NCBI GenBank assembly: GCA_963675785.1
Contig: OY776562.1
Span: forward strand, 2,208,001 to 2,272,000
DNA: 64,000 bases
Direction: 5' to 3'
Source of the DNA: Anaerolineae bacterium
GTDB lineage: Bacteria; Chloroflexota; Anaerolineae; UBA1429
Shown here: positions 2,550-20,027 of the stretch, piece after piece
Layout: each line of letters starts with the position of its first letter
Position numbering within the stretch: position 1 is the stretch's first letter
The notes under the pieces: generated by a model
What the model was told of the DNA's origin: nothing
The model's database searches: none
Seen by the model: the letters and a program-made list of their open reading frames with translations, nothing else
Program-made: the position numbers and the translations under genes

Positions 2550-4256
2550 GTGGCTGAACAAGAACGTTGGATCCTGGCCCGCTCGGCACCCGCCGTGGTG
2601 CAGCAAATGTCCCAGTATTACGACCCCCTGCTGGCTCGCGTGCTAGTTTCTCGCAAACTCGATACCCCCGACAAGGCTCAAGCCTTTCTGCACCCCATCG
2701 CAGAACTCGCTGATCCCTTTTTGTACAAGGGCATGCGCCAAGCTGTTGATCGAATCCTTCAGGCCATTGCTGATCAAGAAACCATTGTCATCTATGGCGA
2801 TTTTGACACTGATGGCGTGACTTCAACCTGTGTCATGGTCACAGCGCTGGAGCAACTCGGCGCCCGGGTCAGCAGCCATATCCCCAATCGCTTTGATGAA
2901 GGTTACGGCCTCAACACCGATTCGCTCAAATCCTTGCAAGAACAGGGCGCTGACCTGATTGTCACTGTGGACTGCGGCGTTCGTGCCGTGGCAGAAGCCG
3001 CCTATGCCCACGAGATCGGCCTCGATATGGTCATTACCGACCACCACTCGGTACCCGAAATCCTGCCTCAAGCTGTAGCCGTCGTCGATGCCAAACAGTC
3101 TGATTGCACTTACCCTTTCAAAGAGCACGCTGGCGTGGGTGTTGCCTACAGCACAGCGCGCGCCCTGTATGCCGCCTGGAACGCTCTCCATCCGCAAGAT
3201 GCGCCGCTTGATGCCAGCGAGCTTCTCGACTTGGCGGCAGTAGGTACAGTGGCCGACATGGTGCCGCTGGGCGGAGAGAATCGCATCATGGTGCAACAGG
3301 GTCTCAAACGCATCGCCGAGAGGCCGCGCCCGGGAATCGCCGCGCTCATTCAGGTATCAGGATCCAAGCCAACCGATATCGACGCTTCTACCATCGCCTT
3401 TCGGTTGGCGCCACGCCTGAACGCTATGGGACGGCTAGAACATGCTGACACCTCGTTTGACCTACTGCGTGCGAAAACCCCTGAAGAAGCCTCTGAGCTA
3501 GCCAATCAGCTCGACGAGACCAACAGACAACGCCAAGATATGCTCTCTGAGCAAGTCAATACTGCTGAAAAACTGGTCGATCCCCTGACGGATCAACTAT
3601 TCTTTGCCTTTGATGAGAACTTTCATGAGGGCATCGTAGGCTTGGTAGCCAGCAGGCTGATGAACCACTATTATCGCCCCGCCCTGGTGATGCGCCGCGG
3701 AGAGAGCGAAACCACGGGGTCTGCTCGTAGCGTCGAGGGCTTTCACATCACCCAGGCATTGGAATACTGCGCCGACCTGCTGGTGCGTTTTGGCGGGCAC
3801 GCCCAAGCCGCCGGATTTACGCTGGAAAACGGCAATATCGAGGTCTTTCGCCAACGACTATTAGCCTATGCCGACGAACACTTGACCGAAGAAATGCTCC
3901 AGCCGCGCATTCTGGTTGATGCCATCGTCGATCTGCCCGAACTCAACGAACGTTCGGTGGCCGCTCTTACCGAATTGGAACCCTGCGGCACTGGCAACCT
4001 ACCCCCCGTTTTTGCCAGTCGCGGCGTACGCGTCGAATTTGCTCGCTGCGTGGGCGCGGATGGACGCCATCTGCAAATGCAGCTCTCGCAAAACAATGGT
4101 GCCCGGCTCAAAGCCATTGCTTTTGGCCTGGGTGAACTCGAAGGCCGCCCCAATCAGGGGGACCTCATCGATATTGTCTATACGCCGCGCATCAATCACT
4201 GGAACGGCAACACCAGTGTCGATCTGGAAATCCAGACCTGGCGGCCTACACAATAG
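2550..4256 (+). CDS. recJ: ssDNA exonuclease RecJ
   Basis: YGDFDTDG, TVDCG, TDHH (DHH), GTVADMVPL, PRLNAMGR and GGHAQAAG motifs, plus an OB-fold C-terminus. Confidence 0.97.
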   Translation: MAEQERWILARSAPAVVQQMSQYYDPLLARVLVSRKLDTPDKAQAFLHPIAELADPFLYKGMRQAVDRILQAIADQETIVIYGDFDTDGVTSTCVMVTALEQLGARVSSHIPNRFDEGYGLNTDSLKSLQEQGADLIVTVDCGVRAVAEAAYAHEIGLDMVITDHHSVPEILPQAVAVVDAKQSDCTYPFKEHAGVGVAYSTARALYAAWNALHPQDAPLDASELLDLAAVGTVADMVPLGGENRIMVQQGLKRIAERPRPGIAALIQVSGSKPTDIDASTIAFRLAPRLNAMGRLEHADTSFDLLRAKTPEEASELANQLDETNRQRQDMLSEQVNTAEKLVDPLTDQLFFAFDENFHEGIVGLVASRLMNHYYRPALVMRRGESETTGSARSVEGFHITQALEYCADLLVRFGGHAQAAGFTLENGNIEVFRQRLLAYADEHLTEEMLQPRILVDAIVDLPELNERSVAALTELEPCGTGNLPPVFASRGVRVEFARCVGADGRHLQMQLSQNNGARLKAIAFGLGELEGRPNQGDLIDIVYTPRINHWNGNTSVDLEIQTWRPTQ

Positions 4257-4307
4257 CCCTACGTGCACTTCACCCAAATGGAACTGTGCAACTCCCCCAT
4301 ATGGAGG

Positions 4308-4336
4308 ATGACACCCTTTTCAATCCATGATATTCT
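4308..4336 (+). promoter_or_regulatory. Putative promoter of the glutamate synthase operon
   Basis: ATGACA-17 nt-TATTCT with an extended -10 TG (TGaTATTCT). Predicted start ~4343, at the first leader hairpin. Confidence 0.6.
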
Positions 4337-4343
4337 ATCCATA

Positions 4344-4405
4344 GTGCAGCGTAGCATAATATTGACTGGCATTGGCGCCGCCCGACAGGTTCGGGCGGTG
4401 TTTTT
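4344..4405 (+). promoter_or_regulatory. ANTAR-type dual-hairpin motif overlapping an intrinsic terminator (attenuator)
   Basis: P1 GTGC-AGCGTA-GCAT and P2 GGC-ATTGGC-GCC both have hexaloops with A1 and G4. The P2 3' arm overlaps the terminator CGCCGCCCGA-CAGGT-TCGGGCGGTG-TTTTT, which lies upstream of the RBS. Confidence 0.75.
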
Positions 4406-4422
4406 CGTATTAAGGGAGGAAC

Positions 4423-5934
4423 ATGGCCCTTTCACTGGCTACCTCTACATTTGTTATCGATCGCGATCCCAATCGTTGTATCTCGTGCCAGGTGTGCGTC
4501 CGCCAGTGTGCCAACGACGTGCATTATTATGTCGAGTCAGAGGACGCTGTGAAGAGCCGCGAACAGAACTGCGTGGGCTGTCATCGTTGTGTCACCCTCT
4601 GCCCGACCCATGCGCTAACCATCCGCGAGAATCCCCTCGATTTTCGCCCACACGCCAACTGGTCCGCTGATGTCCTCAAGAACATCTACAAGCAAGCACA
4701 GACCGGCGGCATGTTGCTGTCTGGTATGGGTTGCGATCAGCCTTATCCCATCTACTGGGATCATATGCTCATCAATGCTTCGCAGGTCACCAACCCCTCC
4801 ATTGACCCTCTACGTGAACCAATGGAACTGCGCACCTACCTGGGGCGTAAAACGGATCAAATAGCTCTGAATGCCGATGGCAATATCGATCTTTCCGTTC
4901 AGCCCTCGCCGCAGCTCCAGCTCGAAGTGCCCATCATGTTCTCTGCCATGTCCTACGGTTCGATTAGTTTTAATGCCTGCCTGTCACTCGCCCGCGCCGC
5001 CAGCGAGATCGGCACCTACTGGAATACCGGAGAGGGCGGCTTGCACCCCGAACTCTACCAGTTCGGCGAACACACCATCGCCCAGGTGGCCTCGGGGCGT
5101 TTCGGCGTCCATTTGGATTACTTGAATGCTGCGGCTGCCATCGAAATCAAAATCGGCCAGGGCGCCAAGCCCGGCATCGGCGGGCACTTGCCCGGCGAAA
5201 AAGTTTCGGCCGAGATTTCGCGCACCCGTATGATTCCAGAAGGCACGGATGCTATCTCGCCCGCACCGCACCACGATATCTATTCCATTGAGGACCTGCG
5301 CCAGCTCATTTTTGCCCTCAAAGAAGCCACCCATTACGAAAAGCCGGTCAGTGTCAAAGTAGCGGCTGTGCACAATATCGCCCCCATCGCCAGTGGCATC
5401 GTGCGGGCCGGCGCCGATATCGTCGCCATTGACGGGCTAAGGGGCGGCACCGGCGCAGCACCGACTGTGGTTCGCAATAACGTGGGCATCCCCATTGAAA
5501 TGGCCCTGGCGGCTGTAGACCAGCGCCTACGCGAAGAAGGTATCCGCAACCGCGCCTCTATCGTGGTGGGCGGCAGCGTACGCAGTAGCGCCGATGTGGT
5601 CAAAGCCATTGCCCTGGGCGCCGATGCCGTCTATATCGCCACCAGCGCCGTAGTTGCCATGGGCTGCCACCTTTGCCAGCACTGCTACACCGGCAAATGC
5701 AACTGGGGTATTGCCACACAAGACCCCTACCTGACCAAGAGACTCAATCCCAACATCGGGGCCCAGCGCGTCAAGAATCTGCTGCGCGCCTGGTCATTAG
5801 AGATCAAAGAAATGATGGGCGGTATGGGCGTCAACTCGATCGAAAGCCTGCGCGGAAACCGTGACCATCTGCGAGGCGTCGGCCTCAACCAGGTCGAGCT
5901 GGACACCCTGGGCATCAAGGCCGTCGGGCAGTAG
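4423..5934 (+). CDS. Glutamate synthase FMN-binding subunit with N-terminal 2x[4Fe-4S] domain (split/archaeal type)
   Basis: Two CxxCxxCxxxC motifs; MSYGS, NTGEGG, QVASGRFGV, EIKIGQGAKPGIGGHLPGEKV, SPAPHHDIYSIEDL; Cys cluster GCHLCQHCYTGKC. Confidence 0.93.
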   Translation: MALSLATSTFVIDRDPNRCISCQVCVRQCANDVHYYVESEDAVKSREQNCVGCHRCVTLCPTHALTIRENPLDFRPHANWSADVLKNIYKQAQTGGMLLSGMGCDQPYPIYWDHMLINASQVTNPSIDPLREPMELRTYLGRKTDQIALNADGNIDLSVQPSPQLQLEVPIMFSAMSYGSISFNACLSLARAASEIGTYWNTGEGGLHPELYQFGEHTIAQVASGRFGVHLDYLNAAAAIEIKIGQGAKPGIGGHLPGEKVSAEISRTRMIPEGTDAISPAPHHDIYSIEDLRQLIFALKEATHYEKPVSVKVAAVHNIAPIASGIVRAGADIVAIDGLRGGTGAAPTVVRNNVGIPIEMALAAVDQRLREEGIRNRASIVVGGSVRSSADVVKAIALGADAVYIATSAVVAMGCHLCQHCYTGKCNWGIATQDPYLTKRLNPNIGAQRVKNLLRAWSLEIKEMMGGMGVNSIESLRGNRDHLRGVGLNQVELDTLGIKAVGQ

Positions 5935-5946
5935 GAGAAACCCCAG

Positions 5947-6387
5947 ATGAAAAGAATTGTCATCCATGAAGAATACTGCATCGGCTGCCGGCTCTGCGAG
6001 GTGCACTGCCTGGTGCAGCACTCGGAATCTCATGACATCATCCGTGCCTTTCGCACTGAACGCAACAGCATCATGCCACGGCTGACGATCGAAGAAAGCG
6101 GGCCTGTATCCTTTGCCTTACAGTGCCGCCAGTGTGAAGAACCAGCTTGCCTCGAAGCCTGCATCTCTGGCGCCATGCATCGCGATCCCGAAACCGGAGC
6201 TGTGATGTGTGACGAGAGCCGTTGCGTAGGCTGCTGGATGTGCATCATGGTTTGTCCCACAGGGGCCATCCAGCAAAATCTGCTGGGCAACCGCATAGCC
6301 AGCAAGTGCGATCTGTGCTATGGCGCAGATATGCCGGCCTGCGTGGCCAATTGCCCCAATGAAGCGCTCACTTACGAGGAAATATAA
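5947..6387 (+). CDS. 4Fe-4S dicluster electron-transfer protein (CooF/DmsB-like)
   Basis: Four Cys clusters: CIGCRLCEVHC, CRQCEEPAC, CVGCWMCIMVCP, KCDLC...CVANCP. Confidence 0.9.
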   Translation: MKRIVIHEEYCIGCRLCEVHCLVQHSESHDIIRAFRTERNSIMPRLTIEESGPVSFALQCRQCEEPACLEACISGAMHRDPETGAVMCDESRCVGCWMCIMVCPTGAIQQNLLGNRIASKCDLCYGADMPACVANCPNEALTYEEI

Positions 6388-6401
6388 CCAGGAGGAAACC
6401 T

Positions 6402-7682
6402 GTGCGAATTGTCATCGTTGGCAACTCGGCAACTGCTGTGGGCGCCGTTGAAACCATTCGGCAGCACGATCAGGCCAGTACTATCACCATCGTCTCCGAA
6501 GAACCCCACGGCATCTATTCCCGCCCCATGCTTGACCATTATCTGGGCGGTGAAATCGACGCGGCACGGCTCAATTACCGGCCATCCGACTTTTACGTAA
6601 CTCACAACGTGCAGCCGCTTCTCGCGGATCGCGTATCATCCATCAATCCTGAGGCTCATACGGTAAATACCGAATCTGGCCAGGTACTGTCCTACGACAA
6701 ACTCTTGCTGGCCACCGGCGGTCAACCCATCGTGCCGCCGATGAACGGCCTGGATACCGGCGGAGTCTTTAGCTTTACTCGGCTCGATGACGCTCGCGCC
6801 ATCGAACAAGCCTTCAGCGAGCGTAGCGTCCAAAACGCCATCGTTGTGGGCGGCGGCATGATCGGCATGAAGGTCACTGACGCACTCTGCCATCGCGGCC
6901 TCAAGGTAACCCTCGCTGAACTGGCCCCGCGCATCCTCAGCGCAGCCATGGATGAAATCGGCGCCAGCATCATGACCGAGGTACTGCTCAATGGCGGCGT
7001 CGAGGTACTCACCGGTAATACTGTCAGTGAAATTCACAGTGAAGATGGCTGGATCAGCAGTGTCACCATGAAGGACGGCTCTGAAAAAGCTTGTGACCTA
7101 CTCGTATTCGGCATCGGCGTTCGCCCCAATGCTGGCCTGGCCCGCGATGCTGGCATTGAGGTTAACCGCGGCATCGTCGTCGATCGTTACATGTGCACAT
7201 CAGCACCTGATGTCTATGCCGCCGGTGATGTGGCTGAAGCCTATGACCTAGTGGTGGACATGAACCGCACCGTAGCCATCTGGCCCAACGCCTACCGACA
7301 GGGAGCCATTGCTGGCGCTCATATGGTGGGCATTGAAGAGCCCGACCAAGGTGGCGTCGCTATGAACGCAGTGCAGGCCTTTGGCATTCCGGCCATGGCC
7401 ATTGGCAACGGCAACGTCGAACAAGAAGGCTATTCCATCCTTGCCGATGAAAACAAGCGCAACCATCGCTACAAGAAACTCGTGTTCGATGAAAAGAATC
7501 ATCTGGTCGGTGCTATTTTGGTCGGTGATATCAACCGAGCTGGCATCTATACTGGCTTGATCCGCGCCAAACTGGATCTCTCCGAGTGCAAAGATAGCCT
7601 GCTCAGTGATCATTTCGGGCTGCTCTCACTGCCGGGGTCTTATCGCAAACACGTCGTTCGCGGCCTGGGCATAGAAGTCTAA
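6402..7682 (+). CDS. NAD(P)/FAD-dependent oxidoreductase (NirB/rubredoxin reductase-like); likely electron-input subunit of the split GOGAT
   Basis: YDKLLLATG, VVGGGMIG, GVRPN and TSAPDVYAAGD motifs; GTG start with GGAGG RBS. Confidence 0.85.
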   Translation: MRIVIVGNSATAVGAVETIRQHDQASTITIVSEEPHGIYSRPMLDHYLGGEIDAARLNYRPSDFYVTHNVQPLLADRVSSINPEAHTVNTESGQVLSYDKLLLATGGQPIVPPMNGLDTGGVFSFTRLDDARAIEQAFSERSVQNAIVVGGGMIGMKVTDALCHRGLKVTLAELAPRILSAAMDEIGASIMTEVLLNGGVEVLTGNTVSEIHSEDGWISSVTMKDGSEKACDLLVFGIGVRPNAGLARDAGIEVNRGIVVDRYMCTSAPDVYAAGDVAEAYDLVVDMNRTVAIWPNAYRQGAIAGAHMVGIEEPDQGGVAMNAVQAFGIPAMAIGNGNVEQEGYSILADENKRNHRYKKLVFDEKNHLVGAILVGDINRAGIYTGLIRAKLDLSECKDSLLSDHFGLLSLPGSYRKHVVRGLGIEV

Positions 7683-7693
7683 AGGGGAATGCC

Positions 7694-8854
7694 ATGAGTT
7701 GGTTGATGCAAGAAAACGCCTATGGCGACGATAAAGTATTCGATGCCTGCGGCCTGATCGGTTTCATCGATACCGACGGTAAGCCCCATGGTGGAGACGG
7801 CATTGTGGCCGGTTTGGTAGCCATGAAGGAACGCGGCAACGGCCTGGGTGCAGGTTATGCCGTATATGGCCTCTATCCCGAATTCGAGAGCCATTATGCT
7901 TTTCACGTCATGTGCAAAAGCGAAAATGCCCGCCAAAAACTCGATGTCTACCTGCGTAGCCATTTTGCCGTAGTCCACGACGAACCCATCCCCACCCGCT
8001 TTGTACAGGATATCCTCGATCCGCCCGTGGTATGGCGCTATTTCATGCTACCGCATCGCGCTGAACTGGGGGGGCGCGAAGAAGAGGACTATATCGTCCA
8101 CCAGGTGATGCTCATTCACAGCACTATTCCGGACGTGTTTGTTGTCTCTTGCGGCAAAAACATGGGCGTGTTCAAAGGTGTCGGCCATCCAGAGCAGATT
8201 GCCGAGTTTTACCGCATCGAAGATTACAGTGGTTACATGTGGACTTCGCACAACCGCTTTCCCACCAACACCCCAGGCTGGTGGGGTGGTGCTCATCCCT
8301 TTGGCTTGCTGGACTGGACGGTGGTGCACAATGGCGAGATCAGTTCCTATGGCATCAACCGACGCTATACCGAGATGTACGGCTATCGCTGCGACATGCG
8401 CACTGATACCGAAGTGATCACATATGCAGCCGATTTGCTTATGCGTCGGCACAAGCTGCCCATGGAGCTGGCCGCGCGCGTGTTTGCTGCCCCTCTCTGG
8501 CAAGAGATCGAACACGTCTCTGATGACGATAAAAAGCTCTACACCGCCCTTCGGCAGACCTATGGGCCGCTTTTGCTCAACGGCCCCTTTACCATCATTG
8601 TGGCTCGCAACGGCGAAATGATGGGCCTCTCGGATCGCGTTCGTCTGCGCCCCATGGTCGCGGCCAGCAGCGGCAGTATTCTGTATGTCTCTTCCGAGCT
8701 GGCAGCTATTCACGTCATCAATCCCAATCTCGATAACGTCTGGATTCCAGAAGGCGGCGAACCGGTTATCGGCCGGTTGGGTATAGCCCCTGCCCCTTCA
8801 AAACCCCTTTCGCTGCAAAGAAAGCCTGCTCAAAAGGAGTTGGCGCATGTCTGA
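7694..8854 (+). CDS. Class II (Ntn) glutamine amidotransferase subunit of the split glutamate synthase
   Basis: DACG after an 18-aa propeptide, ERGNGLGAG, HNRFPTNT, AHPF, VHNGEI, TDTE, LNGPF, DRVRLRP. Confidence 0.9.
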   Translation: MSWLMQENAYGDDKVFDACGLIGFIDTDGKPHGGDGIVAGLVAMKERGNGLGAGYAVYGLYPEFESHYAFHVMCKSENARQKLDVYLRSHFAVVHDEPIPTRFVQDILDPPVVWRYFMLPHRAELGGREEEDYIVHQVMLIHSTIPDVFVVSCGKNMGVFKGVGHPEQIAEFYRIEDYSGYMWTSHNRFPTNTPGWWGGAHPFGLLDWTVVHNGEISSYGINRRYTEMYGYRCDMRTDTEVITYAADLLMRRHKLPMELAARVFAAPLWQEIEHVSDDDKKLYTALRQTYGPLLLNGPFTIIVARNGEMMGLSDRVRLRPMVAASSGSILYVSSELAAIHVINPNLDNVWIPEGGEPVIGRLGIAPAPSKPLSLQRKPAQKELAHV

Positions 8855-9626
8855 GATGCTAAACGTGCAAGAATGCGTTGTTTCGGATACAATTGCCGTC
8901 GATGTTGGCAGTACATATTATCGTGAGCTTAACAACCGGCTGTACGAACTCGTCCAGCAAGGGTACAAACGCTTTCAATTGCAGAATGTACTCGGCCAGC
9001 GCTACCTGGGCACCAGCCTGCAAAAGGCCATCGACATGGACATCCATGGCGTGCCCGGCAACGATCTGGGTGCCTTTATGGACGGCCCACGAATCAATGT
9101 GCTAGGAAACGCGCAAGATGGCTGTGGTAACACCATGAACAGCGGCAGTATCGTCATCCACGGTCATGCGGGTGATGTACTCGGCCTTTCCATGCGTGGC
9201 GGCGAGATCTTTGTGCAGGGAAATGTGGGTTATCGTGTGGGTATTCACATGAAGGAATACGGCGATACACGACCGCTCATTGTCATTGGCGGCACCGCCC
9301 AGCATTTTTTGGGTGAATACATGGCCGGTGGTACGCTGGTAGTATTCGGCATGAATCTTGAGGCCGACCAGCCTCATCCTTCACGCTATGTGGGCACTGG
9401 CATGCACGGTGGAGCCATTTACTTGCGGGGAGAGATCGACGATACCTTCCTTGGCAAAGAAGTGGGCATTGTCCCCCTGAATGAGGCAGATACGGCTCTC
9501 ATCAGGCAATGCGCAGCCAGGTATGCCAACTATTTTGATGCAGATTTGAACGAGATTCTGGATCGACCTTTTATCAAACTGGTACCCCTAACTAAACGCC
9601 CTTACGGGCAACTCTATGCCTATTGA
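8847..9626 (+). CDS. Glutamate synthase GXGXG (GltB domain 3 / FwdC-like) subunit
   Basis: Repeated G-x-x-M-x-G-G beta-helix motifs (GNDLGAFMDG, GNTMNSG, GLSMRGG, GEYMAGG, GTGMHGG). Confidence 0.9.
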   Translation: MSEMLNVQECVVSDTIAVDVGSTYYRELNNRLYELVQQGYKRFQLQNVLGQRYLGTSLQKAIDMDIHGVPGNDLGAFMDGPRINVLGNAQDGCGNTMNSGSIVIHGHAGDVLGLSMRGGEIFVQGNVGYRVGIHMKEYGDTRPLIVIGGTAQHFLGEYMAGGTLVVFGMNLEADQPHPSRYVGTGMHGGAIYLRGEIDDTFLGKEVGIVPLNEADTALIRQCAARYANYFDADLNEILDRPFIKLVPLTKRPYGQLYAY

Positions 9627-9637
9627 CGAGGTGATAT

Positions 9638-10429
9638 ATGCTCTCCGAGCTTGCTCTCGATTGTGAAACAGAAGCAAAACGGATCAAGGCATTCATTCGC
9701 GAGAAACTGGCAGAGGCTGGTTTCTCGCGTGTTGTTGTGGGGCTCTCTGGCGGCATTGATTCGGCGCTAACCTGCGCCCTATGTGCAGAGGCTCTCGGCG
9801 CCGAGAACGTTCAGGCCATGATTCTGCCCTATAAAACCAGCAATCCGGATAGCGCTACCCACGCCTGCCTCGAAGCTGAGCGCCTGGGCGTCGTCTGTGA
9901 GCAATTCGAAATCACCGATATGGTTGATTCTTTGGTTCGCGCCTACCCAGAGATGTCCTCGGGGCGCAAGGGCAACATTATGGCGCGTTGTCGCATGACG
10001 GTGCTGTTCGATCAATCCGCCGCCTTTAACGGGCTGGTGATGGGTACCAGCAATCGCACCGAGTTACTGCTCGGTTACTTTACCATGCACGGCGATGGCG
10101 CCGCCGCCATGGAGCCTTTGGGCCATCTCTACAAATGCCAGGTCAAAGATATTTCTCGACACCTGAACGTCACTCGTGCTATACTTGACAAGCAGCCGAG
10201 CGCTGACCTCTGGAAGGGACAAACCGACGAGGCCGAACTCGGCTTTAGCTATGACGAGGCTGACCAGGTGCTGTATTGGGCAACTGAAGTTGGCTTGAAC
10301 AAACAAGAAATCGCCTTGAAAGGCTTATCCCCAACGACTGTGGATGCCGTGCTGCAACGGATGAATGCAATGGCCTTTAAACTGCGCCCCATTCCAATGC
10401 CGGATACCCGCGGGCGCTGCAGCGAATAA
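9638..10429 (+). CDS. nadE: NH3-dependent NAD+ synthetase (no glutaminase domain)
   Basis: GLSGGIDS, GNIMARCRM, GTSNRTE, GYFTMHGDG, PSADLW.GQTDE; 263 aa. Confidence 0.95.
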   Translation: MLSELALDCETEAKRIKAFIREKLAEAGFSRVVVGLSGGIDSALTCALCAEALGAENVQAMILPYKTSNPDSATHACLEAERLGVVCEQFEITDMVDSLVRAYPEMSSGRKGNIMARCRMTVLFDQSAAFNGLVMGTSNRTELLLGYFTMHGDGAAAMEPLGHLYKCQVKDISRHLNVTRAILDKQPSADLWKGQTDEAELGFSYDEADQVLYWATEVGLNKQEIALKGLSPTTVDAVLQRMNAMAFKLRPIPMPDTRGRCSE

Positions 10430-10440
10430 CGGAGAACACA

Positions 10441-11562
10441 ATGGTTGAACGAACAAAAGGCCTCCTCGTACTCGAAGACGGCAGTGTATTTCCTGGCTAC
10501 TCGATGGGTGCCCAGGGTGAATTCGTCGGCGAGTTGGTTTTCAACACCAGCATGACGGGCTATCAGGAAATCATTACGGATCCCTCTTATTGGGGGCAGA
10601 TGGTAACCTTTACCTGCCCGCACATCGGCAACGTGGGCATCAACCGCGAAGACGCCGAATCGTGTGAGCCCATGGTGCGCGCCATCCTGGTGCGCGAAAT
10701 GTGCGAAACCCCCAGCAACTGGCGAGCGCAGCAACCATTGCCAGAGTACCTCGCTGAGTACAATATCCCCGCACTGGTGGGTTTGGATACCCGCCGCCTG
10801 ACACTGACCCTTCGCGATAAAGGTGTCATGCGCGCAGCCCTGGCCACTAACAGCACCGATAGTGCGCGTCTTTTGGAGATGGCCCGCAATGCGCCGGACA
10901 TGAGCGCTCTCTCGCCGGTCGAGCAGGTTGACACCGAGGCGGTGAGCGATTGGGCCGAGCCCGTTGCTGAAGCCTGGGATGCCATCAAGTTCAAGCAAAA
11001 AGACGCTCCGCACGTTGTGGTTATCGACTGCGGTATCAAGCACAACATCCTGCGCATTCTAAAAACACTGGGAGCCCGCGTTACAGTGGTGCCAGCCAAC
11101 ACCAGTGCTACTGATATCCTGACCCTAAACCCCAACGGTGTGCTCATTTCTAACGGCCCCGGCGACCCTGTTCAGGTACCTGCCACCGTAGAAAGCGTCC
11201 AACAGCTCATGGGCCAGGTACCCATCTTTGGCATTTGCCTGGGGCATCAGATCATTGGCCTCGCTTGCGGCGCCAAAACCTATAAATTGCCCTTTGGGCA
11301 CCATGGTGGCAACCATCCCGTCAAGAATCTGGCCACCGGCCAGGTAGAGATCACCGCCCAGAATCACAACTATGCAGTCGATGCCGAATCCATCAAGGAT
11401 TTGCCACTTGAGGTTACCCGTATCAACCTTTATGACAACACCATAGAGGGGCTCAAGCACACCAAGATGCCCGTCTGGTCTGTTCAATACCATCCGGAAG
11501 CTTCTCCGGGCCCACACGATAGTCTGCACGAGCTGGCAAGTTTCGTTGCCTCTATTGCCTGA
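10441..11562 (+). CDS. carA: Carbamoyl-phosphate synthase small subunit
   Basis: GELVFNTSMTGYQE, TDPSY, SNGPGDP, GICLGHQ and QYHPEASPGP. Confidence 0.97.
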   Translation: MVERTKGLLVLEDGSVFPGYSMGAQGEFVGELVFNTSMTGYQEIITDPSYWGQMVTFTCPHIGNVGINREDAESCEPMVRAILVREMCETPSNWRAQQPLPEYLAEYNIPALVGLDTRRLTLTLRDKGVMRAALATNSTDSARLLEMARNAPDMSALSPVEQVDTEAVSDWAEPVAEAWDAIKFKQKDAPHVVVIDCGIKHNILRILKTLGARVTVVPANTSATDILTLNPNGVLISNGPGDPVQVPATVESVQQLMGQVPIFGICLGHQIIGLACGAKTYKLPFGHHGGNHPVKNLATGQVEITAQNHNYAVDAESIKDLPLEVTRINLYDNTIEGLKHTKMPVWSVQYHPEASPGPHDSLHELASFVASIA

Positions 11563-14987: not shown

Positions 14988-15249
14988 AGGCAGAGCGGTA
15001 AACATGCATCATAGACACTCGCCTCTTTGTACTCCCGGCGCCGCGTGCGTCCAGTTTCGTCTGAGGACCAAGGCAGGCATCGTCTAGGTGTCTGCCTGAT
15101 CCGTGGAACCTCACCATACTATCATCGAAGATAGTATGCGGCTGTGAAGCCGCCCCATCACCGTACGATATCACACCCCATCGCCAAAGAAACAACGCGT
15201 TTGCGCCCTTGTGTGAACGCATGACATACTACAGATACGAGAGGCTGTT

Positions 15250-19973: not shown

Positions 19974-20027
19974 ATAGTGTTGTGCAATATGCACAACACT
20001 ATGTCTACATGACTTGTGCATGAACAA
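19974..20027. promoter_or_regulatory. Inverted-repeat operator upstream of glnA (TTGTGC-N5-GCACAA) with a second imperfect site
   Basis: Perfect 13-bp arms ATAGTGTTGTGCA-ATA-TGCACAACACTAT (19974-20002), then TTGTGCATGAACAA (20014-20027). No U-tract. Confidence 0.7.

What the first reader, a model, noticed from the sequence alone, without database searches (positions are those of the whole stretch)
4308..4422. ANTAR-type antitermination switch in the leader of the glutamate synthase operon
Seen: a promoter (ATGACA-17-TATTCT) is followed at once by two short hairpins with 6-nt loops, AGCGTA and ATTGGC (both A1, G4), 10 nt apart. The second hairpin shares its 3' arm with a strong terminator (10-bp stem plus T5) that sits before the RBS of the first gene. 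Established: this is the architecture bound by ANTAR proteins (EutV, NasR, AmiR), which block terminator formation. Inference: the glt-nadE-carA transcript is off by default and needs an ANTAR protein encoded outside this window, probably signalling nitrogen status.
Basis: partly seen in the sequence, partly recalled or inferred. Interest (0 to 1): 0.72.

Follow-up and report, generated by a model that had tools for sequence, protein, structure and literature searches.

The report
Conserved hexaloop attenuator before glutamate synthase
The leader of a glutamate synthase–NAD synthetase–carbamoyl-phosphate synthase operon in an Anaerolineales bacterium carries a terminator overlapped by a small six-base-loop hairpin of the kind ANTAR proteins bind; this extends a known type of nitrogen-gene switch to a new phylum.

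Summary
A -10 element, two hexaloop mini-hairpins (AGCGTA, ATTGGC) and a 10-12 bp terminator with T5 lie between recJ and a split, archaeal-type glutamate synthase operon.

In this genome alone the motif is not above chance. The evidence comes from relatives. All 25 orthology-selected leaders of the family carry [G/T]GC-RNNGNN-GCC, with the GCC forming the first bases of a leader terminator. Loop position 4 is always G and position 1 is A or G. An upstream hexaloop hairpin with G4 is also enriched. The arrangement holds where the upstream gene is divergent, so it is not the recJ terminator.

The genome has one REC-ANTAR gene, 1.65 Mb away, next to a HisKA_2 kinase. It keeps the EutV residues that contact the loop G4.

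My best reading is an ANTAR-type antitermination attenuator (confidence about 0.6). It is a new member of a kind already predicted in 2012 for glutamate synthase genes of Firmicutes.

Weak points:
- Binding is untested and no RNA data exist.
- P1 is not universal.
- No second target was found.
- The ANTAR gene does not co-vary with the element.

A conserved palindrome at the -35 position (ATCCTCC-N4-GGAGGAT) marks a second, separate control layer.

The parts
4292..4309 (.). Degenerate copy (CTCCCCCATATGGAGGAT) of an 18-bp palindrome, ATCCTCC-N4-GGAGGAT. It is a probable transcription-factor operator overlapping the -35 position.
   Evidence: The right half ends 21-22 nt before the -10 in about 24 of 31 family leaders, counted by eye. 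The same palindrome lies upstream of gdh and PF01645 genes in relatives. It is the only noncoding site with 2 or fewer mismatches beside a nitrogen gene in this genome.
4308..4336 (+). Promoter-like site: ATGACA, 17 nt, TG-n-TATTCT. The -10 is conserved in position; the -35 hexamer is not.
   Evidence: Scan. Relatives show TATGAT, TATAGT, TATTAT or TAGGAT at the same distance from the palindrome.
4344..4357 (+). P1 mini-hairpin, GTGC-AGCGTA-GCAT (hexaloop with A1 and G4). It would start at or next to the predicted transcript 5' end.
   Evidence: -3.5 kcal/mol. In relatives, a hexaloop hairpin with a stem of at least 4 bp lies within 14 nt of P2 in 21 of 29 leaders, against 7.9 in shuffles. It carries G4 in 13 of 29 against 2.6, and A1+G4 in 6 of 29 against 0.57.
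4368..4379 (+). P2 mini-hairpin, GGC-ATTGGC-GCC (hexaloop with A1 and G4). This is the proposed protein-stabilised antiterminator.
   Evidence: [G/T]GC-RNNGNN-GCC is present in 25 of 25 orthology-selected leaders, with G4 invariant and positions 2, 3, 5 and 6 free.
4376..4405 (+). Intrinsic terminator: 10-12 bp G+C-rich stem, 5-nt loop and T5. Its 5' arm contains the P2 3' arm.
   Evidence: -20.0 kcal/mol. In the 25-leader alignment the helix is 89.7% paired and 3 of 8 pairs show changes on both sides.
4412..4425 (+). RBS AAGGGAGG and the ATG of the first gene.
4423..11562 (+). Regulated operon. It encodes a Fer4+FMN glutamate synthase domain protein, a ferredoxin, a pyridine-nucleotide oxidoreductase, a GATase_2 protein, a GXGXG protein, NadE and CarA. 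Three ABC-transporter genes (to 14987) follow with no intergenic terminator.
   Evidence: Pfam and NCBIfam. Gaps between genes are 11-20 nt or overlaps. No intergenic terminator-like site lies between 5934 and 14987.

Best explanation
This is a transcription attenuator of the ANTAR type. Transcription starts a few bases after TATTCT (4331-4336). By default the nascent leader folds into the strong terminator (4376-4405), and RNA polymerase stops before the glutamate synthase-nadE-carA operon. When the genome's single REC-ANTAR response regulator is phosphorylated by its adjacent HisKA_2 kinase, it dimerises and binds the hexaloops, first P1 and then P2. The flipped-out G at loop position 4 is the main contact. 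Holding P2 closed keeps the GCC (and sterically the following bases) out of the terminator stem, so the polymerase reads through.

Shown:
- the anatomy in this genome;
- its conservation in the family;
- the presence of one ANTAR protein with intact RNA-contact residues.

Inferred:
- the transcription start;
- that the terminator works;
- that this protein is the binder;
- that the signal concerns nitrogen or glutamine.

A separate activator-type operator at -35 probably sets initiation.
For: 1. Anatomy in this genome. The terminator is 12-18 kcal/mol more stable than P1+P2, so a protein would be needed to hold P2.

2. Conservation of P2. All 25 leaders chosen only by orthology of the first gene (80-84% aa identity, 16 genera) carry [G/T]GC-RNNGNN-GCC. 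The loop is always 6 nt, G4 is found in 25 of 25, and position 1 is A in 17 and G in 8. The other loop positions vary, giving 24 distinct loops among 31 leaders. The GCC always opens the terminator.

3. Strand asymmetry. G4 is invariant, while its palindromic partner, position 3, is C in only 10 of 31. This argues for recognition of RNA rather than of a DNA palindrome.

4. Match to the solved complex. In passages of PMC8934654, G4 stacks on Tyr164 and is bonded by Arg142, Lys149 and Glu160. A1 makes no specific contact, and a single hexaloop is the minimal motif. That fits an invariant G4 and a looser position 1.

5. P1. Hexaloop hairpins carrying G4, or A1+G4, just upstream of P2 exceed all 500 shuffles.

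6. Linkage to the operon. A covariance model of the element hits only this operon's leader in 42 genomes. That includes G006, G022 and G004, where the leader precedes nadE-carA without the glt genes.

7. The candidate protein. The genome has one REC-ANTAR gene. Its best solved relatives are 1s8n (8.9e-59) and EutV 6wsh (3.4e-43). Arg142, Lys143, Lys149, Glu160 and Met172 are identical to EutV, Tyr164 is Phe, and the phospho-acceptor Asp55 is present.

8. Precedent. Table S2 of PMC3369931 lists 11 predicted ANTAR RNA hits beside glutamate synthase genes, all in Firmicutes.

9. No Rfam family explains the leaders.
Against: - There is no experimental or RNA evidence. No RNA run is listed.
- The P2 stem is invariant, so no covariation supports it. 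Four leaders have TGC, which leaves only 2 bp.
- A slid register (+3) also pairs in 89% of cells.
- Position 1 is G in 10 of 31. In 7 of 31 leaders positions 1 and 6 could pair and shrink the loop to 4 nt.
- P1 is not universal. Eight of 29 leaders have no hexaloop hairpin with a stem of at least 4 bp, and L011 has no room for one. In E. faecalis both hairpins were needed (PMC3369931 passages).
- The ANTAR gene does not co-vary with the element. It is present in 39 of 42 family genomes whether or not they carry the element.
- It was not detected in two genomes that have the element: G004 (94% complete) and G056 (77% complete).
- G026, in another family, has an ANTAR gene and a glt leader terminator but no hexaloop.
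- No second target with this architecture was found in this genome.
- The element was not found at 78 distant glt loci.
- Related leaders are not independent, so the shuffle statistics overstate the case.
Confidence: 0.6

Rival explanations
1. The leader is a real regulated attenuator, but the conserved GGC-RNNGNN-GCC hairpin is read by something other than the ANTAR protein. That could be another RNA-binding protein, a small RNA or a metabolite. The REC-ANTAR two-component system would then serve unrelated targets.
For: - The ANTAR gene is a near-universal single-copy gene of the family (39 of 42) and of other families. It does not track the element.
- It is unlinked, 1.65 Mb away, and its neighbours have no nitrogen genes.
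- Two element-bearing genomes show no ANTAR gene.
- No further ANTAR-like target was found in this genome.
- The P2 stem shows no covariation.
Against: - The conserved part is only about 14 nt, and the sequence upstream of it is not alignable between genera. That is too little for a metabolite aptamer.
- No Rfam match was found.
- The pattern found here is an exact 6-nt loop, an invariant G4, free positions 2, 3, 5 and 6, and overlap with the terminator's 5' arm. This is the published ANTAR signature.
- From my own knowledge, PyrR, TRAP, HutP, LicT/SacY RAT sites and T-boxes have other recognition motifs. This was not tested here.
Confidence: 0.25
2. The hairpin plus T-run is a constitutive element with no switch. 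It would be a partial terminator or pause that damps expression, or the terminator of the upstream gene. The hexaloop resemblance would then be chance plus shared ancestry.
For: - In this genome alone the motif is at chance level.
- The relatives share ancestry, so conservation is partly inheritance.
- recJ ends 120 nt upstream in this genome, and a recJ-like gene end lies upstream in some relatives.
Against: - The leader terminator persists where the upstream gene is divergent (L003, L005, L007). It also persists after loss of the glt genes.
- Sequence around the 12-mer has diverged freely (24 distinct loops, unalignable flanks), while G4, GC and GCC stay fixed across 16 genera.
- A terminator needs none of the bases 5' of its stem.
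- A promoter-like -10 at a conserved distance from an operator lies upstream of the terminator.
Confidence: 0.08
3. GGC-N6-GCC is a DNA palindrome bound by a dimeric DNA-binding repressor acting as a roadblock downstream of the promoter.
For: GGC/GCC is invariant and symmetric. A second DNA operator exists at this promoter, so protein-DNA control does occur here.
Against: - The conserved inner positions are asymmetric. G4 is found in 31 of 31, but its symmetry partner, position 3, is C in only 10 of 31.
- The site always abuts a terminator.
- Three-base half-sites are too short for a typical operator.
Confidence: 0.05

Closest known systems
EutV/EutW and the eut leaders of Enterococcus faecalis (dual-hexaloop ANTAR antitermination; PMC3369931, PMC8934654)
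   Same: - Two mini-hairpins with 6-nt loops carrying A1 and G4.
- A linker within the 5-12 nt range.
- A P2 3' arm shared with an intrinsic terminator.
- A regulator of REC-ANTAR architecture, with the EutV RNA-contact residues conserved.
   Different: - The operon is for biosynthesis and assimilation, not ethanolamine catabolism.
- The regulator is unlinked.
- There is one terminator, not four.
- In the family, P1 is degenerate or absent and position 1 is often G.
- The aromatic residue that stacks on G4 is Phe, not Tyr.
Predicted ANTAR RNA hits beside glutamine and glutamate synthase genes in Firmicutes (Table S2 of PMC3369931: Carboxydothermus, Desulfotomaculum, Desulfitobacterium, Pelotomaculum, Thermoanaerobacter wiegelii)
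   Same: The regulated function is the same, including a split glutamate synthase with a 4Fe-4S ferredoxin in T. wiegelii. The RNA architecture is the same, and the status is the same: prediction only.
   Different: - Those genomes often encode the ANTAR regulator next to the target.
- They show multi-operon regulons.
- That table has no Chloroflexi entry.
- Here the element is confined to one operon.
PdtaS/PdtaR two-component system of Mycobacterium tuberculosis. The solved structures are 1s8n 'putative antiterminator' and 2ykf 'PdtaS'. That 1s8n is PdtaR/Rv1626 is recalled, not taken from a call.
   Same: The REC-ANTAR protein's closest solved relative is 1s8n (8.9e-59). Its partner is a cytoplasmic HisKA_2 kinase whose N-terminal part weakly matches the PdtaS sensor (E 6e-4).
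   Different: Mycobacterial ANTAR RNAs are reported to act on translation at ribosome-binding sites (abstract of 10.1101/660928 and PMC8164766, from the listing). Here the hairpin overlaps a terminator. The kinase match is weak.
NasR/nasF, NasT and AmiR antiterminators
   Same: They are ANTAR output domains acting on a hexaloop hairpin upstream of a leader terminator of a nitrogen-metabolism operon (PMC3369931 passages).
   Different: Their sensor modules differ (NIT domain, NasS or AmiC partners), whereas this one has a phospho-accepting receiver. This comparison rests on the literature only and was not tested here.

Membership tests
ANTAR target RNA (dual-hexaloop antiterminator) | Two short stem-loops, each with a hexanucleotide loop | tested here: met
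   This genome has P1 at 4344-4357 and P2 at 4368-4379. In the family, P2 has a 6-nt loop in 25 of 25 leaders. A P1-like hexaloop hairpin (stem of at least 4 bp) is present in 21 of 29 and absent in 8.
ANTAR target RNA (dual-hexaloop antiterminator) | A at loop position 1 and G at loop position 4 | tested here: met
   This genome has AGCGTA and ATTGGC. In the family, P2 has G4 in 31 of 31 and A1 in 21 of 31, with G otherwise. P1 has G4 in 13 of 29 and A1+G4 in 6 of 29. So the feature is met in this genome and only partly across the family.
ANTAR target RNA (dual-hexaloop antiterminator) | Linker between the hairpins of roughly 5-12 nt | tested here: met
   The linker is 10-11 nt in this genome. 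The range is from PMC3369931 passages. Relatives range from 0 to 14 nt.
ANTAR target RNA (dual-hexaloop antiterminator) | P2 3' arm overlaps the 5' arm of an intrinsic terminator | tested here: met
   The overlap is at 4377-4379, inside 4376-4385. The same arrangement holds in all 25 aligned leaders.
ANTAR target RNA (dual-hexaloop antiterminator) | An ANTAR-domain protein is encoded in the same genome | tested here: met
   There is one PF03861 match at 80.6 bits, and 39 of 42 family genomes have one. Two genomes with the element, G004 and G056, show none.
ANTAR target RNA (dual-hexaloop antiterminator) | The ANTAR protein binds the RNA and suppresses termination | not testable with these tools
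   No RNA run is listed. No protein-RNA tool is available.
REC-ANTAR response regulators (EutV/PdtaR type) | Receiver domain with a phospho-acceptor Asp, a coiled-coil linker and a C-terminal ANTAR three-helix domain with RNA-contact residues | tested here: met
   Pfam finds Response_reg at 6-115 and ANTAR at 134-186. In the alignment to 6wsh, Asp55, Arg142, Lys143, Lys149, Glu160 and Met172 are kept and Tyr164 is Phe (read against the passages).
Intrinsic (Rho-independent) terminator used as a leader attenuator | G+C-rich hairpin followed by a T-run, placed between a promoter and the start codon | tested here: met
   The hairpin and T5 are shown. The promoter is only predicted, from its conserved -10 position. 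The transcription start itself is not testable here.

The most novel reading that the evidence does not exclude
The PdtaS/PdtaR-type two-component system is conserved across Chloroflexota and Actinobacteria, and its natural RNA targets and signal are poorly defined. In Anaerolineales it may act as a classical terminator-based antiterminator of a single glutamine-consuming operon (GOGAT, NadE, CarA). It would work on top of a separate, still unidentified transcription factor whose 18-bp operator, ATCCTCC-N4-GGAGGAT, defines a glutamate regulon (glt, gdh, PF01645 genes). That would give PdtaR-type regulators a clean, testable physiological target. It would also reveal a two-layer nitrogen control circuit in a phylum where none is described.
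Probability: 0.4. Interest if true: 0.55.

Novelty: new member of a known kind. Interest (0 to 1): 0.4.

Why it matters
ANTAR antitermination of nitrogen genes, glutamate synthase included, has been predicted since 2012, so the mechanism itself is not new. Three things are new.
- The phylum. No Chloroflexi entry appears in Table S2 of PMC3369931. The paper searches turned up no listed title or abstract on ANTAR RNA targets in Chloroflexi (one search listed 12 of 17 papers holding both words).
- The natural variation. Thirty-one leaders keep G4 while position 1 and P1 relax, in line with the 2022 EutV-RNA structure.
- The candidate regulator. The only ANTAR protein available is a PdtaR-type regulator.

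If confirmed, this would give that regulator family a defined terminator target. It would also show how an uncultured-rich group gates glutamine use.

Tried and rejected
- Rfam on the leader and on 13 related loci gave nothing at or near gathering scores.
- Expression data: no RNA holder is listed for this stretch. Read laying was not used, because contigs cannot show transcript ends.
- Earlier notes of this scan gave nothing for this genome.
- Regulon search in this genome:
  - A rigid GGC-RNNGNN-GCC scan found 38 noncoding hits, against 19-32 for controls. Only the glt leader combines a noncoding position with a terminator.
  - Three of the four other dual-hairpin loci were examined and are gene-end terminators. 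The fourth (near 222,7xx) looked coding but was not examined.
  - Model R1 finds only the glt leader.
- amtB: the leader in this genome has a single GGC-AACGGC-GCC hairpin but no terminator. The relatives' amtB genes (48% identity or less) have a different upstream organisation, so no comparison was possible.
- glnA: the leader has no such element. No P-II gene was found with PF00543.
- Distant glt loci from other phyla: R1 hit only the two family members among 83 sources. Of 75 loci, 8 had any upstream terminator-like site and none had an R1/G4 hexaloop on it.
- Co-occurrence of the ANTAR gene with the element is uninformative: 39 of 42 genomes have the gene.
- The order-level search returned the same 42 genomes as the family and added nothing.
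- A second copy of the palindrome in this genome was not found above control level.
- A leader-peptide reading was rejected. I saw no ATG and no ribosome-binding site between 4343 and 4405.

Full report
**What is there.** The window is G000:C1:2208001-2272000 of a 3.2-Mb, 53.6% G+C single-contig genome. Two family members appear among named public records as Anaerolineales/Chloroflexota MAGs (L032 and L033).

recJ (2550-4256) is followed by a 166-nt spacer and then a run of tightly packed genes:
- a 4Fe-4S plus FMN-domain glutamate synthase protein (4423-5934);
- a ferredoxin;
- a pyridine-nucleotide oxidoreductase;
- a GATase_2 protein;
- a GXGXG protein;
- NadE;
- CarA;
- three ABC-transporter genes.

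No intergenic terminator-like site occurs up to 14987. carB, a PucR-type regulator and glnA follow.

**The observation.**
- ATGACA-17-TATTCT, 4308-4336;
- P1, (G)TGC-AGCGTA-GCA(T);
- P2, GGC-ATTGGC-GCC;
- a 10-12 bp terminator with T5, whose 5' arm contains the P2 3' arm;
- the RBS and ATG.

The terminator (-20.0 kcal/mol) far outweighs P1+P2 (-7.8 kcal/mol).

Taken alone, the motif is not special in this genome. Single A1/G4 hexaloops on terminator 5' arms number 72 of 2554 sites, within the 39-90 range of the other letter pairs. Dual ones number 7, against 0-7. The other three dual-hairpin loci that I examined are gene-end terminators. A fourth I judged to be coding by eye only.

**Comparative test.** The family (which is also the whole order) holds 42 species genomes, and 26 have an orthologue of the first gene. 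I took the leaders of 25 of them by protein orthology alone.
- All 25 carry [G/T]GC-RNNGNN-GCC, with the GCC opening a leader terminator.
- The loop is always 6 nt.
- Position 4 is G in 25 of 25.
- Position 1 is A in 17 and G in 8.
- Positions 2, 3, 5 and 6 vary.

I located the 12-mer with a pattern that required R1 and G4. The fair statement is therefore that every orthology-selected leader matched it at the expected place, and none failed. L013, from another family, has a leader terminator but no such hairpin.

The terminator helix is 89.7% paired, with changes on both sides in 3 of 8 pairs. The P2 stem never varies, apart from TGC in four leaders, so covariation neither supports nor contradicts it.

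**A model search.** A covariance model of the element (R1) found, across the 42 genomes, only leaders of this operon. These include six not used to build it:
- G005 and G056 are glt leaders.
- G021 lies at a contig end.
- In G006, G022 and G004 the leader precedes nadE-carA with no glt genes.

With these six the counts become G4 in 31 of 31 and A1 in 21 of 31. The six were found by a model trained on the motif, so they are not independent.

**P1.** Among 29 leaders (L005 and L010 were dropped by a stricter pattern), I counted hexaloop hairpins with a stem of at least 4 bp within 14 nt upstream of P2.

| Feature | Leaders with it (of 29) | Mean in dinucleotide shuffles |
|---|---|---|
| Any such hairpin | 21 | 7.9 |
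| With G4 | 13 | 2.6 |
| With A1+G4 | 6 | 0.57 |

None of 500 shuffles reached any of these values. Related sequences inflate such statistics.

P1 is clearly not universal. Eight leaders lack it. Several have 4-, 5-, 7- or 9-nt loops instead (my reading). In L011 only about 15 nt separate the -10 from P2.

**It is not the recJ terminator.** In L003, L005 and L007 the upstream gene is divergent, with its RBS and ATG on the other strand in the printed sequence. The promoter-terminator-gene order is kept all the same.

**The candidate protein.** The genome has one ANTAR gene. It encodes a 193-aa REC-ANTAR protein at C1:562430-563011, 1.65 Mb from the window. It lies directly downstream of a 358-aa HisKA_2/HATPase kinase.

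Its closest solved relatives are 1s8n (8.9e-59) and EutV 6wsh (3.4e-43). The kinase's N-terminal part weakly matches the PdtaS sensor 2ykf (E 6e-4).

I read the alignment to 6wsh against the contacts described in PMC8934654 (passages). Arg142, Lys143, Lys149, Glu160 and Met172 are identical. Tyr164, which stacks on G4, is Phe. The acceptor Asp is present.

That paper also reports that A1 makes no specific contact and that one hexaloop is the minimal binding motif. This fits an invariant G4 with a relaxed position 1.

**What does not fit, or stays open.**
- The ANTAR gene is in 39 of 42 family genomes regardless of the element. It is also in other families.
- It was not detected in G004 (94% complete) or G056 (77% complete), both of which carry the element.
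- No second terminator-linked target exists in this genome.
- The amtB leader has a lone GGC-AACGGC-GCC hairpin without a terminator.
- glnA has nothing comparable, and no P-II gene was found.
- Distant glt loci lack the element.
- There are no RNA data.

**A second control layer.** The -35 hexamer is not conserved. In its place, about 24 of 31 leaders (counted by eye) have an 18-bp palindrome, ATCCTCC-N4-GGAGGAT.
- Its right half ends 21-22 nt before the -10.
- A second copy often lies 23 bp upstream.
- The copy in this genome (4292-4309) has two mismatches.
- Leaders of one genus lack the palindrome and instead have TTGACA-17-TATATA.

Across the family the palindrome (1 mismatch or fewer) occurs 1-12 times per genome in 39 of 42 genomes. 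The backwards control gives 0-2. I inspected one locus per genome. The intergenic copies there lie upstream of PF01645 glutamate-synthase-like genes in seven genomes and of glutamate dehydrogenase in two.

This looks like the operator of an unidentified glutamate or nitrogen regulator, placed at the glt promoter as a class-II activator site would be. It is independent of the attenuator.

**Comparison with what is known.** The dual-hexaloop and terminator architecture, and its association with nitrogen genes, were defined in PMC3369931 (abstract and passages). Its Table S2 lists 11 rows naming glutamate synthase, all in Firmicutes, and none from Chloroflexi.

Two paper searches gave no listed title or abstract on ANTAR RNA targets in Chloroflexi. 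The second listed 12 of 17 papers that hold both words.

**Verdict.** This is a new member of a known kind. I put confidence at about 0.6 for ANTAR-type antitermination and about 0.9 that it is a conserved leader attenuator of this operon.

Noticed in passing
window 4292-4309; relatives L204, L208, L210-L214, L218: An 18-bp palindrome, ATCCTCC-N4-GGAGGAT, sits at the -35 position of the glt promoter. In relatives it also lies upstream of glutamate dehydrogenase and PF01645 glutamate-synthase-like genes. It is probably the operator of an unidentified glutamate or nitrogen regulator. In this genome only the glt copy exists.
   Followed up: partly
window 15115-15153 (carB leader): Two adjacent hairpins: CATACTATC-ATCGAA-GATAGTATG (hexaloop with A1 and G4), then GCGGC-TGTGAA-GCCGC followed by CC. 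The second resembles P2 but has T at position 1, can close to a GUGA tetraloop, and has no terminator after it. Relatives have carA and carB contiguous, so no comparison was possible.
   Followed up: partly
L126:2833-2844 (-), i.e. G000:C1 about 351881-351892, amtB leader: A GGC-AACGGC-GCC hexaloop hairpin (A1, G4) lies about 50 nt before the amtB start codon and is followed by A6 rather than a terminator. It is preceded by a long extended hairpin. It is not conserved in the divergent amtB loci of relatives.
   Followed up: partly
window 19975-20001: A perfect 12-3-12 inverted repeat, TAGTGTTGTGCA-ATA-TGCACAACACTA, lies just after the stop codon of the PucR-type regulator gene and about 150 nt before glnA. 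It has no T-run. It could be an operator or a terminator hairpin.
   Followed up: no
L143 (G006), L153 (G022), L163 (G004): In three relatives the same leader (operator where present, hexaloop hairpin and terminator) precedes nadE-carA directly. The five glutamate synthase genes are absent from that place.
   Followed up: partly
L120, L122, L123 (one genus): These leaders lack the palindrome and have a consensus TTGACA-17-TATATA promoter, while keeping GGC-GTKGAA-GCC plus the terminator. Here the attenuator may be the only control.
   Followed up: no
L126 about 4050-4060 (-), upstream of amtB: The selD-like gene (a PurM/AIR-synthase-like sequence, 317-aa ORF) seems to continue upstream through an in-frame TGA. 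This would be a possible selenocysteine codon, as in many SelD proteins. Seen by eye only.
   Followed up: no
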